Positions 7,724-15,568 of a stretch of DNA of 22,209 nt are shown here, piece by piece (position 1 is the stretch's first letter; every line of letters starts with the position of its first letter). Below the pieces are notes generated by a model, which saw only the letters and a list, made by a program, of their open reading frames with translations, did not search any database and was not told where the DNA came from. The stretch is from a virus (Duplodnaviria; Heunggongvirae; Uroviricota; Caudoviricetes), in the IMG/VR virus record IMGVR_UViG_2526164633_000039; one strand, 5' to 3'. The translations under genes and the position numbers were made by a program.

Positions 7724-8131
7724 ATGGCAAAAGTATTTACACAGGAAGAGCGGGAAAAAATTAAAGGACAGGTGGTGGAACTCGTGCGCCAGAGCGGTCG
7801 TGAGACGTTACGGCAACTGGAAGCTAAAACAGGTGCGACAAGATATCTGATGAGCGTTCTTGCCAGAGAGCTGGTTGCCAGTGGTGATGTATATCACTCT
7901 GGCTATGGGGTGTTCCCGTCAGAACGGGCTCGTAAGGACTGGCAAAACGCCCGCAAAAAACTCTCGAGGGCAAAGGTGAAGAAACCTGTTGTGGTTGATC
8001 CGGGCCTTATCTGGACATTACCCGACGGAGAAATACGCCGCTACGACAGGCGTATGAACATAATCTGTCGCGAGTGCCGGAAGAGCGAAGTTATGCAGCG
8101 TGTATTGGCGTTCTATCAGGGATATGCCTAG
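7724..8131 (+). CDS. Hypothetical 135-aa protein, possible winged-helix DNA-binding N-terminus
   Basis: Strong AGGAGGA RBS before the ATG at 7724. No confident family assignment. Confidence 0.5.
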   Translation: MAKVFTQEEREKIKGQVVELVRQSGRETLRQLEAKTGATRYLMSVLARELVASGDVYHSGYGVFPSERARKDWQNARKKLSRAKVKKPVVVDPGLIWTLPDGEIRRYDRRMNIICRECRKSEVMQRVLAFYQGYA

Positions 8132-8499: not shown

Positions 8500-9531
8500 A
8501 TGTCTATTAATCCTAAACTTAAGCGTATCGCGCGACGCTATCCAGCGTTATTCCAATATGAGTCCCCCTATATGGCAAGAAAATTAATAATATTCGGCAA
8601 CGGTCTCGGTATGGCTTTAGATCCTGCTCACTTCTCCTTAGACAGAGCGTTGGAAGAAATTTGGCATCGCCCCAATTTTTTAAAAGATATCCACAAGCAA
8701 CTTATCGAGCGTTGTCTTCAGCGGCAAGGTCCACCAGAAGGAGAACATGAGTTGGATACCCTTCACCAGGCTGTCACATATTGTAAAGCTCTTGCTCAAA
8801 TTGGAGAGGGGAACGTGCATTGGCTTACTGAAGATGGACTAAACTTCCCCAAAATTACCGCCACTTATATTCACAAAGTTGCAACCAGGTTGCATAATTA
8901 CGATAAAGGTTTGCCACAAAGATTCGAAAATGCGCTTGTGGAGTTTGTAAAGAACACACACTCACATATCGCGACATTAAACTATGACAAATTATTATAC
9001 AATTCATTCATAGATAATGATATATTCAACGGGTATGATGGGGTTTTAGTTGATGGGATGCTAAGCCACGGATTTTCCTCTGCAGCGCTCGAACGGAAAT
9101 ACAATCGTAGGTTTGGTTATTATTTGCACTTGCATGGTTCACCACTATTTATTAATCAGCATGAAAATGTTTTAAAACTTTCACGCTCACAACTTACTCT
9201 TGACATAGATGAACCTAGTGAGCATATAGTGTTAACTCATATAAAAAGAAAACCGTCAGTTATAGCAGCATCTAATGTTCTTTCTACGTACTGGGATTAT
9301 TTGCAGTTTGCATTATTTGAATCAGAAGAAATAATATTGTTTGGTTACTCTGGTCTCGATATTCACCTTAACCTGCTTATTCGACCTTACCTAACCTCTA
9401 AGCCTTTAAGAGTAATTGAGTGGAGCGGTGCTGGTGAACAAAACGCTCGTGAGATATATTGGAAAAACCAGTTGAGACGGGAAGTTACTGTAATTAGGTT
9501 GGATAACATCACTGATTTTATTGATTGGTAG
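8500..9531 (+). CDS. SIR2-like (sirtuin-fold, SIR2_2/DUF4020-type) protein, 343 aa; candidate NAD-consuming anti-phage defence effector
   Basis: Motifs read directly from the translation: glycine-rich IIFGNGLGMA (aa 30-39), IATLNYD (Asn161), YLHLHGS (His210/His212), ILFGYSGLDIHL (aa 279-290). These match the order and spacing of defence-associated SIR2 domains. Coding GC is far lower than the flanking prophage (about 32% in sampled 60-nt stretches). Confidence 0.65.
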   Translation: MSINPKLKRIARRYPALFQYESPYMARKLIIFGNGLGMALDPAHFSLDRALEEIWHRPNFLKDIHKQLIERCLQRQGPPEGEHELDTLHQAVTYCKALAQIGEGNVHWLTEDGLNFPKITATYIHKVATRLHNYDKGLPQRFENALVEFVKNTHSHIATLNYDKLLYNSFIDNDIFNGYDGVLVDGMLSHGFSSAALERKYNRRFGYYLHLHGSPLFINQHENVLKLSRSQLTLDIDEPSEHIVLTHIKRKPSVIAASNVLSTYWDYLQFALFESEEIILFGYSGLDIHLNLLIRPYLTSKPLRVIEWSGAGEQNAREIYWKNQLRREVTVIRLDNITDFIDW

Positions 9532-10591: not shown

Positions 10592-10870
10592 ATGGCACGC
10601 AACGCAAAATATTACAATCATGATAATTCGACCGTTCTTGCCCACACGCACGAGCGGTATTCTCACGCATTTAAGTCAGACTGGTACCAGCATCCCCCAT
10701 GCACTGAAGAACAGGCCGAATGGCTCATTCAGTGTTACCGCAGGCGCGGATGCGAGGTTAAAAAAGCCCTTAGCCTCGACTACCGTCACTGGATAATCTC
10801 CGTCGGGCTTCCTTACTCCGAACGCCCACCGCGTCTGTCCCGCACATTCCAGCAACGCATCTGGAGGTAA
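10592..10870 (+). CDS. Hypothetical 92-aa protein
   Basis: Strong GGAGGA RBS before the ATG at 10592. Stop abuts the GTG start of the following gene. Confidence 0.5.
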   Translation: MARNAKYYNHDNSTVLAHTHERYSHAFKSDWYQHPPCTEEQAEWLIQCYRRRGCEVKKALSLDYRHWIISVGLPYSERPPRLSRTFQQRIWR

Positions 10871-10871
10871 C

Positions 10872-11611
10872 GTGCGGGTATTACTTCGACCTGTTCTGGT
10901 ACCGGAACTCGGGCTGGTGGTCCTTAAGCCCGGTCGCGAATCACTGCCGGTTTTTCATTGCGGCAGGGTGCTGGTGGAGCCGGAACCGAAAAGCATGCGC
11001 GGTCTGCCGTCCGGAGTCGTCCCTGCCGTTCGCCAGCCGCTGGCGGAGGATAAATCATTACTGCCATTTTTCAGCGATGAGCGTGTGATTCGTGCTGCTG
11101 GCGGCGCTGGCGCACTGTCTGACTGGCTCCTGCGTCATGTCAAATCCTGCCAGTGGCCTCATGGTGACTACCATCACAGTGAAACCGTCATACATCGTTA
11201 TGGTACCGGCGCAATGGTGTTGTGCTGGCACTGCGACAACCAGCTGCGCGACCAGACCTCCGAATCACTCGGGCAACTTGCTCACCAAAACCTGTCTGCA
11301 TGGATGATTGACGTCATACGCCATGCAATGAATGGCTCGCAGGAACGGGAATTATCGCTGGCTGAATTATCCTGGTGGGCGATCCGCAATCAGGTGGCGG
11401 ACGCGCTACCGGAAGCGGTATTACGTCGTTCGCTGGGGTTGCGTGCGGAAAAAATCCGCTCAATGTACCGTGAAAGCGACATCGTACCGGGAGAGCAGAC
11501 CGCCACCAGCATACTGAAACAGCGCACAAAAAATCTTGCGCCGCTGCCTCACGCCCACCAGCAACAGAACCCGCCACAGGAAAAGACGGTGGTCAGCATT
11601 GCTGTTGATCC
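10872..11611 (+). pseudogene. ydfU: YdfU/DUF968-like gene, 5' portion, interrupted by IS66-family insertion
   Basis: Reading frame runs into the IS and terminates at a TAA created by the IS terminus (GTAAGCG). After removing the IS and one copy of the 8-bp duplication it continues in frame into 14324..14633. Confidence 0.6.
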
Positions 11612-11641
11612 GTAAGCGGCTCGCCAGAACCGTATTGATAT

Positions 11642-13213
11642 TTACTGAGAGGTCAGATCAACTTTCCAGGGCAACAGATCGCGTACCCGGTTTGCCGGCC
11701 AATCCTGGATATGCTCAATGACGTAACGCAGCCATTTTTCTGGTTCCACATTGTTCAGACGGCATGTGCCGATCAGCGAGTACAACACCGCCGCATGTTC
11801 GCCACCGCTGTCGGAACCCGCGAACAGCCAGTTTTTCCGGCCTACGGCCACTCCCCGTAAGGCGTTCTCTGCGATGTTGTTGTCGATTTCCACCCAGCCA
11901 TTACTGCAGTACACGTTCAGGCCATCCCACTGTTTCAGCAGGTATGCGAACGCTTTTGCCGTATCCGAGTGACGCGACAGTGTTTTCATCTGAGTCTGTA
12001 TCCAGTCATACAGTGACTGCATCAGTGGCGCAGCTCTGGCTTTTCTTGCCGCCAGACGCTGTTCTGCTGTACATCCCCGGACTTCTGCCTCTATGGCATA
12101 CAGTTCACCGATACGCTGCAGGGCTTCCGTGGTGATGTCGGTGGGCACTCTTGCATGCACATCGTGGATTTTTCTCCGGGCATGAGCCATACACGCGGCT
12201 TCCGTTATTCTGCCGGATTCGTATAACACCCGGTAACCACCGTAAGCATCGGCCTGAAGCACACCGCTGTAACCGGCCAGATGATTTTGTGGATGGATAC
12301 CTTTCCGGTCCGGTGAGTACGCGAACCAGACCGCCGGGGGCATTTCCGAACCGGCGTTACGGTCATCACGGACGTAGACCCACAGCCGGGCGGTCCGGGT
12401 TTTACCGCTGCCCGGCTCCTGGACCGGGACGGGGATATCATCAGCATGGACTTTACCGGGCATCAGCACATACTGGCGCAGGACGTCATACAGCGGCTCC
12501 AGCAGTTCAGCAACGGCACCTGTCCAGCGCCCCAGCGTGGCGCGGCTCAGCTCCACGCCCTGGCGACGGTATATTTCTGACTGGCGGTATAACGGCAGAT
12601 GGTCTGCATATTTCCCGGTAACAACATGGGCCAGAAGCCCCGCTCCGGCATAACTGCGTGCAATGGGTTTTGAAGGTACTGTTGCCTGCACGATATGGTC
12701 GCACCGACAACAGGCCAGTTTCGGACGTTGTGTTTCGATAACCTTAAAGGCGCTGCTGATAAGCTCCAGTTGCTCTGACACATCACACCCCAGAGGACTG
12801 AGGTCACCACCACAGGCCGGGCAGCATTCCTCTTCCGGCCGGATGACCCGGGTTTCACGGGGAAGTGAGGCCGGTAACGGTTTACGGGCTGAAGACTGGC
12901 GCAGGGCGGATGGCAGTACCGGGTCATATTGCTCACCCAGCGTTTCCGCCATTTCTTCCTGAAGTGCGCTGATTCGCTCCTGTGCTTCCTGTATCTGCCG
13001 TTCGGTTTTAGCGCGAAGTTTTTCTGAGCTTTTACCGAACTGCATGCGCTGCAGTTTCGCAACCAGCGCCTTCAGCCGGTTGATTTCGGAAGCATAAGCC
13101 GCCACCCGCTGTGAGAGCAGGCGGTTGTATTTCGCCATCTGGCGGATGGTGTCCTGTTGCGTCTGCAACAGTGCCCGCAGGCGGGCATTCTCATGAGCAA
13201 GTGAGGTGTCCAT
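11642..13213 (-). CDS. tnpC: IS66-family transposase TnpC (523 aa)
   Basis: Intact ORF with N-terminal coiled-coil/leucine-zipper-like region, a Cys-rich zinc-finger region (CPACGG...CCRCDH) and conserved IS66 transposase core. Confidence 0.9.
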
Positions 13214-13232
13214 ATCCTCACTTTACAACGGG

Positions 13233-13580
13233 TTATATGCGGATGCCAGCGCGTTCCGTTCGTTTCGGGTGCTTCCAGTCGATGCCTTCGAGAAGCATGG
13301 ACAACTGAGCCGGAGTAAGGTGAACCTTTCCATCGCGGGTGACCGGCCAGACGAAGCGGCCCCGCTCCAGGCGTTTGGTGAAGAGGCACAGTCCGTCACT
13401 GTCAGCCCACAGCACTTTTATCTGGTCACCCCGGCGTCCGCGGAAGATGAACAGATGCCCGGAGAACGGGTCATCCTTCAGGACGTTCTGAACTTTTGAG
13501 GCCAGGCCGTTAAAGCCATTTCGCATATCGGTGATACCGGCAACCAGCCAGATACGCGAACCGGCAGGGAGAGATATCAT
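13233..13580 (-). CDS. tnpB: IS66-family accessory protein TnpB (Orf2, 115 aa)
   Basis: MISLPAGSRIWLVAGITDMRNGFNGLASKVQ... is typical IS66 Orf2. Start overlaps the tnpA stop. Confidence 0.9.
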   Translation of the reverse strand: MISLPAGSRIWLVAGITDMRNGFNGLASKVQNVLKDDPFSGHLFIFRGRRGDQIKVLWADSDGLCLFTKRLERGRFVWPVTRDGKVHLTPAQLSMLLEGIDWKHPKRTERAGIRI

Positions 13581-14230
13581 CAGTGGCTGCTCCCTTTCAT
13601 TTCGCGGATAAGTGTCTGTAATAACGCCGGTGTCAGTTCACCTTTCAGCCTGAGAGTTCCGGCCGGCAGAACCAGCTCGCAGCACAGACTGTCTGGCAGT
13701 GTATTTATCTGTTCAGGTATCTGCACTGGTGCCGGGATTTTATTATCCGGCTCCGGAGTTAACGTCACGGGAAGTAGCGATGTTTCATGTTCGCCGGGCG
13801 GTTGCAGGCCACCGTTACGCCAGAGATGCCGCCAGTTAAAGAGCAGGTTATCGTTAATTCCATTCTCTCGAGCTATTTGTGCGACACAGGCACCGGGTAA
13901 AAGAGTTTGCTGAACCAGTCTCCATTTAAACTCCGGTGAAAATCGGTTCCGGCGGGGTTTCTCTGCTTTCACAGGCTGAGTCACGGTCGGGGCTGAAGGG
14001 TATCGCCCCGGGAAAAGAGCCCGGGCCAGTTGCCCGCAGGAATATTCACCGGAAAGAGGCCAGTCAGTGAATACCTGGTGAAATCGCCTCACCAGAGAAA
14101 AAATGGCGGTTTTGCTGACACCAGTCTGCGCAGAAATGCGCGGGTACGACAGTGACTCGTCAAATCTCAGCTGTAGCACACGCAGGATCAATTCTGGATT
14201 ATCTGCCAGTACCGCTTTTCGTGCATTCAT
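13580..14230 (-). CDS. tnpA: IS66-family accessory protein TnpA (Orf1, 216 aa as drawn; a shorter internal start is possible)
   Basis: First ORF of the element, with an HTH-like N-terminus. ATG at 14228-14230. Confidence 0.75.
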   Translation of the reverse strand: MNARKAVLADNPELILRVLQLRFDESLSYPRISAQTGVSKTAIFSLVRRFHQVFTDWPLSGEYSCGQLARALFPGRYPSAPTVTQPVKAEKPRRNRFSPEFKWRLVQQTLLPGACVAQIARENGINDNLLFNWRHLWRNGGLQPPGEHETSLLPVTLTPEPDNKIPAPVQIPEQINTLPDSLCCELVLPAGTLRLKGELTPALLQTLIREMKGSSH

Positions 14231-14323
14231 CTTAAATGTCCTTTTACTGCGAAAATGGACATTAGTATCGGAAACAGGAAAGGGAGGCGAAAGACGGTTT
14301 AAATGATGCGCTTACGTTGATCC

Positions 14324-14633
14324 GGAGTCTCCGGAATCTTTAATGAAGCGACCTAAACGTCGCCGTTGGGTAAATGAGAAATATACGCGCTGGGTAAAGA
14401 CACAGCCGTGTGCGTGTTGTGGTAAGCCAGCCGACGATCCCCATCACCTGATTGGTCATGGTCAGGGCGGAATAGGGACAAAAGCCCACGATATTTTCAC
14501 GCTACCGTTGTGCCGGGAGCATCACAACGAACTTCATGCTGATCCGCTGGCATTTGAAGAAAAGCATGGTTCCCAGATTGATTTAATTTTTCGTTTTCTT
14601 GATCGCGCCTTTGCAACCGGCGTGCTCGGGTAA
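14324..14633 (+). pseudogene. ydfU: YdfU/DUF968-like gene, 3' portion (Cys/His-rich C-terminal domain)
   Basis: In-frame continuation of 10872..11611 once the IS is removed. Contains CACCGKPADDPHHLIGHGQGG...CREHHNELH. Confidence 0.6.
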
Positions 14634-14645
14634 AAGAGGTTACTG

Positions 14646-15005
14646 ATGCGTATAGAGTTTGTTTTGCCTTACCCGCCGACGGTGAACACCTACTGGCGAC
14701 GTCGTGGCAGCACATATTTTGTGTCAAAAGCCGGTGAGCGTTATCGCCGGGATGTGGCACTTATTGTTCGCCAGCAGCGGCTGAAATTAAACCTGTCCGG
14801 AAGGCTGGCGATAAAGATTATTGCAGAGCCACCGGATAAGCGCCGCCGCGACCTGGACAATATCCTGAAGGCACCACTGGATGCGCTTACGCATGCCGGA
14901 CTACTTATAGACGACGAGCAGTTTGATGAAATCAATATTGTGCGCGGTCAGCTCGTTTCTGGTGGGCGGCTGGGCGTGAAGATTTACAAAATTGAAAGTG
15001 AGTGA
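14646..15005 (+). CDS. rusA: RusA Holliday-junction resolvase (119 aa)
   Basis: AGAGG RBS. Protein carries PPTVNTYWRRRG and RRRDLDNILKAPLDALTHAGLLIDDEQ, matching RusA motifs including the catalytic DxD region. Confidence 0.85.
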   Translation: MRIEFVLPYPPTVNTYWRRRGSTYFVSKAGERYRRDVALIVRQQRLKLNLSGRLAIKIIAEPPDKRRRDLDNILKAPLDALTHAGLLIDDEQFDEINIVRGQLVSGGRLGVKIYKIESE

Positions 15006-15568
15006 GCATAAATATGATATACCCGGAAATTACAGGCAAAAGCGGTGAGCATTTACGCCTGAAAACGCTGGAAAGTGTCTGGATCCAGGGGAAACTGCGT
15101 ATGTGGGGGCGTTGGTCGTATATTGGCGACGGTAAGACGGGAAATATGTTCAACCAATTACTGACCTCTAAAAAGCTGACAAAAACGGCAATTAACGAGG
15201 CGCTCCGGAGGATGAAAAAAGCGGGTCTGGACAAACCTGAACTTGAGGCTTTTTTGCGGGATATGATCAACGGCAATCAAAAAAGCTGGCTGGCACATTG
15301 TACCGATTCAGAGGCGTTAATAATCGACAGGGTTATTGGTGAAGTACTGGCAGGTTATCCCGGGCTGCTCAATGTTCTGAGTCAGCGTTATGTGGGGCGG
15401 GGGATGACTAAGCGCAAAATGGCTGAACTGCTGAATGATGCACATCCGGAATGGAGTTTAAGAACCTGTGAAAGACGCATTGAGCATTGGCTAAAGGTGG
15501 CAGAATTTATTTTGTACAAACCAATGGTTATGGCTTTTGGTATAGAGAAAAAAGTTATTGCTTTTTGA
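15002..15568 (+). CDS. Putative late-gene antiterminator (Q-like) assigned by position; function not confirmed from sequence
   Basis: GTG at 15002 overlaps the rusA stop; alternative ATG at 15014. Located between rusA and a hairpin plus T-run, where Q and tR' sit in lambdoid phages. No strong motif recognised. Confidence 0.4.
   Translation: MSINMIYPEITGKSGEHLRLKTLESVWIQGKLRMWGRWSYIGDGKTGNMFNQLLTSKKLTKTAINEALRRMKKAGLDKPELEAFLRDMINGNQKSWLAHCTDSEALIIDRVIGEVLAGYPGLLNVLSQRYVGRGMTKRKMAELLNDAHPEWSLRTCERRIEHWLKVAEFILYKPMVMAFGIEKKVIAF

What the first reader, a model, noticed from the sequence alone, without database searches (positions are those of the whole stretch)
11604..14323. Clean IS66-family insertion with 8-bp target duplication splitting a DUF968/YdfU-like gene; the intact gene can be reconstructed
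GTTGATCC occurs at 11604-11611 and 14316-14323, immediately outside termini that begin GTAAGCG and end CGCTTAC. Removing the IS plus one duplicate joins 10872..11611 to 14324..14633 in frame as a roughly 345-aa protein (...SIAVDP/ESPESLMKRPKRRRW...). This is a recent simple transposition, and the element is intact and potentially active.
Basis: seen in the sequence. Interest (0 to 1): 0.45.

Follow-up and report, generated by a model that had tools for sequence, protein, structure and literature searches.

The report
IS679 insertion splitting a prophage gene
An intact copy of the known E. coli insertion sequence IS679 has recently jumped into a DUF968/YdfU-like gene of a lambdoid prophage; this is an ordinary, well-understood event.

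Summary

- **The element.** Window 11612-14315 is a 2704-bp IS66-family element. It is 100% identical over its full length to copies that RefSeq annotates as IS679. It carries intact tnpA, tnpB and tnpC on the minus strand and has GTAAGCG termini.
- **The duplication.** The element is flanked by a perfect 8-bp direct repeat, GTTGATCC.
- **The empty site.** Removing the IS and one repeat gives a sequence that is 100% identical, as one uninterrupted piece, to three complete E. coli genomes, for example O111:H2 strain 12A. There the octamer occurs once at the junction, inside a 349-aa DUF968 gene (WP_001265206.1) that matches the reconstruction base for base.
- **How recent.** None of 5,426 complete E. 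coli genomes has this site occupied.
- **Other copies.** Six of eight other near-identical IS679 copies, at unrelated sites, each have their own perfect 8-bp duplication.

So this is a recent simple transposition of a known, probably active IS into a prophage gene. The gene lies directly upstream of rusA and a Q-like antiterminator.

The restored protein is 349 aa, not about 345, and the element can be named exactly as IS679. Novelty: already known. Interest: low.

Seen in passing: a second, frameshifted IS66-family copy starts at 20602 in the same orientation.

The parts
10872..11611 (+). 5' part of the interrupted DUF968/YdfU-like gene (codons 1-246 plus 2 nt). The truncated ORF 10872-11615 ends in a TAA supplied by the IS terminus (CCG TAA GCG).
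   Evidence: ORF list. Pfam DUF968 profile positions 1-72 of 171. Identical to L001:8861-9600.
11604..11611 (.). Left copy of the 8-bp target-site duplication, GTTGATCC.
   Evidence: Present once in the empty site of L001.
11612..14315 (-). IS679 (IS66 family), 2704 bp, complete. Its genes are on the minus strand.
   Evidence: 100% identity over 2704 bp to copies annotated IS679 in E. coli chromosomes and plasmids. 0 mismatches to L004, L005 and L010.
11612..11636 (.). Terminal inverted repeat at the tnpC-distal end of the IS (starts GTAAGCG). It is imperfect: 17 of 25 positions match the other end.
   Evidence: End-to-end comparison. The GTAAGCG terminus is typical of the IS66 family (PMC12888890).
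11642..13213 (-). tnpC, the 523-aa DDE transposase.
   Evidence: Pfam DDE_Tnp_IS66 346.7 bits (profile 1-283 of 284), plus the zf-IS66, LZ_Tnp_IS66 and IS66_C domains. NCBIfam NF033517 474 bits. Identical to WP_000381456.1, because the DNA is identical to L004 and L005.
13233..13580 (-). tnpB, the 115-aa IS66 accessory protein. Its start overlaps the tnpA stop (TGATG). tnpC starts 19 nt downstream, after a GAGGA motif.
   Evidence: Pfam TnpB_IS66 136.8 bits. NF033819. Junction sequences.
13580..14230 (-). tnpA, the 216-aa helix-turn-helix accessory protein.
   Evidence: Pfam HTH_Tnp_1. NF038385 IS66_access_TnpA 283.6 bits.
14291..14315 (.). Terminal inverted repeat at the tnpA-proximal end of the IS (ends CGCTTAC).
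14316..14323 (.). Right copy of the 8-bp target-site duplication, GTTGATCC.
14324..14633 (+). 3' part of the interrupted DUF968 gene. It carries the Cys/His-rich HNH-like region. An internal ATG at 14343 opens a 96-aa ORF.
   Evidence: Pfam DUF968 profile positions 79-171 of 171, 173 bits. Identical to L001:9601-9910.

Best explanation
An intact copy of the known insertion sequence IS679 (IS66 family; tnpA-tnpB-tnpC; DDE transposase TnpC) transposed into a DUF968/YdfU-like gene of a lambdoid (Qin-like) prophage. It made staggered cuts 8 bp apart at GTTGATCC, and repair of the gaps duplicated that octamer. The insertion cuts the 349-aa protein after residue 247. The N-terminal fragment stops at a TAA supplied by the IS end, and the HNH-like C-terminal domain is separated from it. 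The event is recent and specific to this strain's lineage. Shown here: the element's identity, its boundaries, the duplication, the empty site and the intact ORFs. Inferred: that this copy can still transpose, and that 2.7 kb of antisense, untranslated sequence reduces read-through into the downstream rusA and Q-like antiterminator genes.
For: - Element identity: 100% over 2704 bp to copies annotated IS679.
- Gene content: the three ORFs hit the IS66 TnpA, TnpB and TnpC models far above their cut-offs. The tnpA stop and tnpB start overlap, and tnpC follows after 19 nt. This fits the translational coupling reported for the family by Han et al. 2001, as cited in PMC3469429.
- Empty site: the 1200-bp reconstruction matches three complete genomes at 100% in one piece, and 2166 genomes at 80% coverage or more, always annotated as DUF968 followed by RusA.
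- Junction: L001 has one GTTGATCC at the junction, and its DUF968 CDS equals the reconstruction base for base. The junction residues VDPESPES are invariant in four uninterrupted homologues of 85-100% identity.
- Restored family match: DUF968 profile 1-171 of 171 at 252.9 bits, and phrog_96 profile 1-333 of 334.
- Occupied site: none of 5,426 complete genomes has it.
- Flank divergence: outside the IS the flanks differ from strain 12A at only 12 positions in 9.6 kb on the left, and 3 positions in 5.7 kb on the right up to 20000.
- Other copies: six of eight IS679 copies at unrelated sites have perfect 8-bp duplications of differing sequence at the same element boundaries. A seventh appears to have one offset by 1 bp.
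Against: Nothing contradicts it. Caveats:
- The name IS679 rests on RefSeq/PGAP annotation of identical copies. Neither the ISfinder reference nor the original pB171 copy could be fetched.
- Transposition competence and polarity on rusA and Q were not tested.
- The window's provenance is unknown, so an assembly artefact cannot be formally excluded. A perfect duplication at exact element ends argues strongly against one.
Confidence: 0.97

Rival explanations
1. The 8-bp repeat is native sequence or a chance match, and the IS sits between two unrelated gene fragments. One route would be homologous recombination between two IS copies, giving a chimeric junction rather than a simple insertion.
For: GTTGATCC also occurs a third time in the window, at 7994. 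One other IS679 copy (L010) lacks a duplication, so rearranged copies do exist. A second IS66-family copy lies 6.3 kb away, at 20602.
Against: Uninterrupted relatives join the two flanks exactly, with a single octamer, at 100% identity over 1200 bp. The two fragments together restore a full-length DUF968 protein that is colinear with its homologues.
Confidence: 0.01
2. The two IS66-family copies (11612-14315 and 20602 onward, same orientation) act as a composite transposon that brought in the segment between them, which carries rusA, Q, a methyltransferase, tRNAs and an esterase.
For: The two copies are in direct orientation and are 95.7% identical over 1.6 kb.
Against: The segment 14316-20000 is colinear with the IS-free prophage of strain 12A and nearly identical to it (3 differences), in the same position. 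The first copy has its own perfect duplication, which marks an independent simple insertion. The second copy has a frameshifted tnpC.
Confidence: 0.01
3. The insertion is an assembly artefact: a repeated IS was placed wrongly in a draft assembly.
For: The window's source and sequencing method are unknown. IS679 is multicopy in related strains, with 15-16 matching places per chromosome. The second IS copy has several single-base indels, which could be sequencing errors.
Against: Misassembly would not create a perfect 8-bp duplication exactly at the element's ends, with both flanks precisely contiguous in relatives.
Confidence: 0.01

Closest known systems
IS679 (IS66 family; first described on EPEC plasmid pB171 by Han et al. 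2001, J Bacteriol 183:4296, which I cite from my own knowledge and from reference lists seen)
   Same: Same 2704-bp length. 100% identity to RefSeq copies annotated IS679. Same tnpA-tnpB-tnpC organisation, GTAAGCG termini and 8-bp target duplication.
   Different: Nothing except the insertion site, which is unoccupied in all 5,426 complete E. coli genomes searched.
ISCro1 and other E. coli IS66-family elements (ISEc8, ISEc22)
   Same: Same three-gene architecture and family. ISCro1 also splits a DUF968 homologue in an O157:H16 strain (L002).
   Different: They are about 90-96% identical or less at the DNA level (identity bands). The ISCro1 insertion in L002 is at a different position in the gene, about nt 219 rather than nt 740.
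YdfU (Qin prophage, E. coli K-12), Pfam DUF968 and PHROG 96 'HNH endonuclease'
   Same: The reconstructed 349-aa protein is 85% identical to a protein annotated YdfU (L012) and covers the whole DUF968 and phrog_96 profiles. It has the same genomic position, downstream of hokD and rem and upstream of the antiterminator gene.
   Different: Here the gene is interrupted. Its biochemical function is uncharacterised, and the HNHc_6 Pfam hit is below its cut-off (21.8 against 26.6 bits).

Membership tests
IS66 family (classic three-ORF type) | Three consecutive genes, tnpA-tnpB-tnpC, on one strand, with closely coupled starts and stops. | tested here: met
   ORFs at 14230-13580, 13580-13233 and 13213-11642. 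TGATG overlap, then a 19-nt gap with GAGGA. NCBIfam equivalogs NF038385, NF033819 and NF033517 all score above their cut-offs.
IS66 family (classic three-ORF type) | TnpC carries the full DDE_Tnp_IS66 catalytic domain with the zinc-finger and leucine-zipper regions. | tested here: met
   PF03050 profile 1-283 of 284 at 346.7 bits, plus PF13005, PF13007 and PF13817.
IS66 family (classic three-ORF type) | Imperfect terminal inverted repeats that begin GTAAGCG. | tested here: met
   Both ends begin GTAAGCG, and 17 of 25 positions match. The same terminus is reported for other IS66 members.
IS66 family (classic three-ORF type) | An 8-bp target-site duplication. | tested here: met
   GTTGATCC on both sides, single in the empty site. 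Six of eight other copies have 8-bp duplications.
IS679 (the specific element) | Near-identity in nucleotide sequence and length to the reference IS679 (2704 bp, a figure from my own knowledge of Han et al. 2001). | tested here: met
   100% over 2704 bp to many RefSeq copies that PGAP names 'IS66-like element IS679 family transposase'. The ISfinder and pB171 reference sequence itself was not available.
IS679 (the specific element) | Demonstrated transposition activity of this copy. | not testable with these tools
   Only indirect evidence: the identical sequence sits at several unrelated sites, each with its own duplication.
DUF968 / YdfU (PF06147) | A full-length match to the family profile above the gathering score. 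| tested here: met
   The reconstruction scores 252.9 bits over profile 1-171 of 171. The two fragments alone cover 1-72 and 79-171.
HNH endonucleases | A significant match to a curated HNH model, and nuclease activity. | tested here: inconclusive
   Pfam HNHc_6 scores 21.8 bits, below its 26.6 cut-off. phrog_96 is labelled HNH endonuclease at E = 2e-173, but that is an annotation and not an assay.

The most novel reading that the evidence does not exclude
The insertion may have a regulatory consequence and not merely disrupt a gene. It places 2.7 kb of antisense, untranslated IS DNA between the prophage's early region and the co-oriented, tightly packed rusA and Q-like antiterminator genes. 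That could block late-gene expression and lock the prophage in place. Together with the second IS66-family copy at 20602, in direct orientation, it also sets up a 9-kb recombination or deletion cassette covering Q, the tRNAs and the esterase gene.
Probability: 0.1. Interest if true: 0.25.

Novelty: already known. Interest (0 to 1): 0.08.

Why it matters
It matters little beyond annotation. It is a textbook example of a recent IS insertion whose ancestral empty site can be recovered exactly. The practical uses are modest. The two DUF968 fragments should be annotated as one pseudogene interrupted by IS679. The insertion is a strain-specific marker that could serve for typing within the O111:H2-related EPEC lineage. 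It may also contribute to decay of the prophage by polarity on Q.

Tried and rejected
- **Primary paper.** I tried to read the primary IS679 paper (Han et al. 2001) by DOI and by PMC95320. It is not held, so details such as the 2704-bp reference length rest on my own knowledge and on secondary citations.
- **Reference copy.** I tried to fetch the original pB171 copy. AB024946 is absent. NC_010862, which I recalled wrongly, is pMAR7 and irrelevant.
- **Insertion hotspot.** I looked for a shared IS66-family hotspot at this site. The other IS66-family insertions near ydfU homologues (L002, L003, L012, L013) are all at different positions, so I rejected a hotspot.
- **Target consensus.** I saw no obvious consensus on inspecting the eight target duplications.
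- **Outward promoter.** I looked for a promoter at the IS end that could drive the 96-aa C-terminal ORF, rusA and Q. The consensus scan found no candidate on the + strand in 14100-14640.
- **Composite transposon.** Rejected.

Full report
**Observation.** The window contains GTTGATCC at 11604-11611 and again at 14316-14323. The 2704 bp between them begin GTAAGCGGCT and end ATGCGCTTAC. The two ends form an imperfect inverted repeat: the first 7 positions match, and 17 of the first 25 match. The octamer is not rare in the window, with 3 occurrences against 0.69 expected. What matters is that it abuts both ends of an independently defined element, which has a chance probability of about 1.5e-5. 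One base of the boundary is ambiguous, because G follows both repeats. Other copies of the element settle the boundary as GTAAGCG...CGCTTAC with an 8-bp duplication.

**What the element is.** On the minus strand there are three full-length ORFs:
- tnpA, 216 aa, at 14230-13580.
- tnpB, 115 aa, at 13580-13233.
- tnpC, 523 aa, at 13213-11642.

They hit the following models:
- Pfam HTH_Tnp_1, for TnpA.
- Pfam TnpB_IS66, for TnpB.
- Pfam DDE_Tnp_IS66 for TnpC, covering profile positions 1-283 of 284 at 346.7 bits, together with the zf-IS66, LZ_Tnp_IS66 and IS66_C domains.
- The NCBIfam equivalogs IS66_access_TnpA, IS66_TnpB and transpos_IS66, all well above their cut-offs.

The tnpA stop overlaps the tnpB start (TGATG), and tnpC starts 19 nt after the tnpB stop, behind a GAGGA motif. 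This matches the translational coupling described for the family by Han et al. 2001, as summarised in PMC3469429. GTAAGCG termini are also reported for other IS66 members (PMC12888890).

At the DNA level the 2704 bp are 100% identical, end to end, to copies on E. coli chromosomes and on E. coli and Shigella plasmids that RefSeq annotates as 'IS66-like element IS679 family transposase'. The element is therefore IS679, a known insertion sequence.

**Is the repeat a target duplication?** I built the empty site from 600 bp on each side, keeping one copy of the octamer, and searched 5,426 complete E. coli genomes.
- It matches three genomes at 100% identity as one uninterrupted 1200-bp piece: O111:H2 strain 12A, FDAARGOS_1059 and 602687.
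- It matches 2,166 genomes at 80% coverage or more, always annotated as a DUF968 protein followed by RusA.
- In the strain 12A locus (L001), the window aligns up to 11612 on the left and from 14316 on the right, overlapping on a single GTTGATCC.
- The annotated DUF968 CDS there (WP_001265206.1, 349 aa) is identical base for base to the reconstruction 10872-11611 plus 14324-14633.
- The junction residues VDPESPES are invariant among four uninterrupted homologues that are 85-100% identical to the reconstruction.
- The reconstruction restores a full DUF968 match (profile 1-171 of 171, 252.9 bits), whereas the two fragments cover 1-72 and 79-171. It also restores a full phrog_96 match.

Eight other IS679 copies with 0-11 mismatches, at unrelated sites, served as an independent check. 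Their sites include the genes traC, yiaA/B, traH and an integrase gene. Six of the eight have perfect 8-bp duplications, each of a different sequence, at the same element boundaries. One appears to have a duplication offset by 1 bp, and one has none.

**How recent, and is it intact?** No complete genome has this site occupied. The only long matches to 10600-15300 are loci with other IS66-family elements at other positions. Outside the IS, the prophage differs from that of strain 12A at 12 positions in 9.6 kb on the left, and at 3 positions between 14316 and 20000 on the right. The duplication is perfect, and the IS has 0 mismatches to copies elsewhere that carry their own duplications. This supports a recent insertion of a sequence variant that has been transposing recently. 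That this particular copy is active remains an inference.

**Consequences.**
- The N-terminal fragment of 247 aa ends at a TAA created by the IS terminus (GAT CCG TAA GCG).
- The Cys/His-rich HNH-like C-terminal region is detached. An internal ATG at 14343 opens a 96-aa ORF, but nothing shows that it is expressed. The consensus scan found no promoter-like site facing outward from the IS.
- The gene lies 12 bp upstream of rusA (14646-15005), which in turn overlaps the start of a Q-like antiterminator gene (15002-15568; DUF1133 and phrog_753). Polarity of the antisense IS on these two genes is plausible but untested.

**Rivals.**
- A native or chance repeat, or a recombinant junction between two IS copies, is refuted by the empty-site loci.
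- A composite transposon formed with the second IS66-family copy at 20602 is refuted. The intervening DNA sits in its native position in the IS-free relative, and the first copy has its own duplication.
- An assembly artefact cannot be formally excluded without reads, but it would not produce an exact duplication.

**Verdict.** The corrections are minor: the protein is 349 aa, and the element is specifically IS679. This is an ordinary, already known kind of event and is of low interest.

Noticed in passing
window 20602-22209 (runs off the right end): A second IS66-family element starts with GTAAGCG at 20602, in the same orientation as IS679. It is 95.7% identical to IS679 over 1.6 kb, and relatives annotate it as the ISCro1 family. 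Six single-base indels break its tnpC, so the ORF stops at 21013 after 398 aa. It is either a decayed copy or carries sequencing errors. The two copies are direct repeats 6.3 kb apart and could mediate deletion of the segment from rusA through Q and the tRNAs to the esterase gene.
   Followed up: partly
window 20000-20601: Of the 92 differences from the strain 12A prophage on the right flank, 89 fall between 20000 and 20545 (85 of them in 20000-20499), and homology ends at 20545, 56 bp before the second IS. This looks like a mosaic breakpoint in the holin/YdfR (DUF1327) region.
   Followed up: partly
L002 (NZ_CP062876.1 617800-621556), compared with window 10872-14633: In an O157:H16 strain an ISCro1 element independently splits the homologous DUF968 gene at a different position, after about 219 nt. 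Other IS66-family insertions lie near ydfU homologues in L003, L012 and L013, but none is at the window's site.
   Followed up: partly
window 8500-9531 (+): A 343-aa ORF with a SIR2-like domain (PF13289, 26.1 bits), annotated 'SIR2 family protein' in the relative. It sits in the prophage early region between DUF977 and hokD, and may be a prophage-borne defence gene.
   Followed up: no
window 17239-17488 and 17977-19839 (+): A cluster of three tRNAs: CAT anticodon, which RefSeq calls tRNA-Ile in the relative, then Arg-TCG and Arg-TCT. It is followed by a 620-aa protein with DUF1737, SASA (sialate O-acetylesterase) and DUF6645 domains. To my knowledge this is the position downstream of Q where Stx phages carry the toxin genes.
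   Followed up: no
L010 (plasmid RIP71a, NZ_MN626601.1 62952-65655): An IS679 copy with 0 mismatches to the window copy has no target duplication (GAACAAAC against CTTTGATT). This suggests a later rearrangement or an IS-mediated deletion at that site.
   Followed up: no
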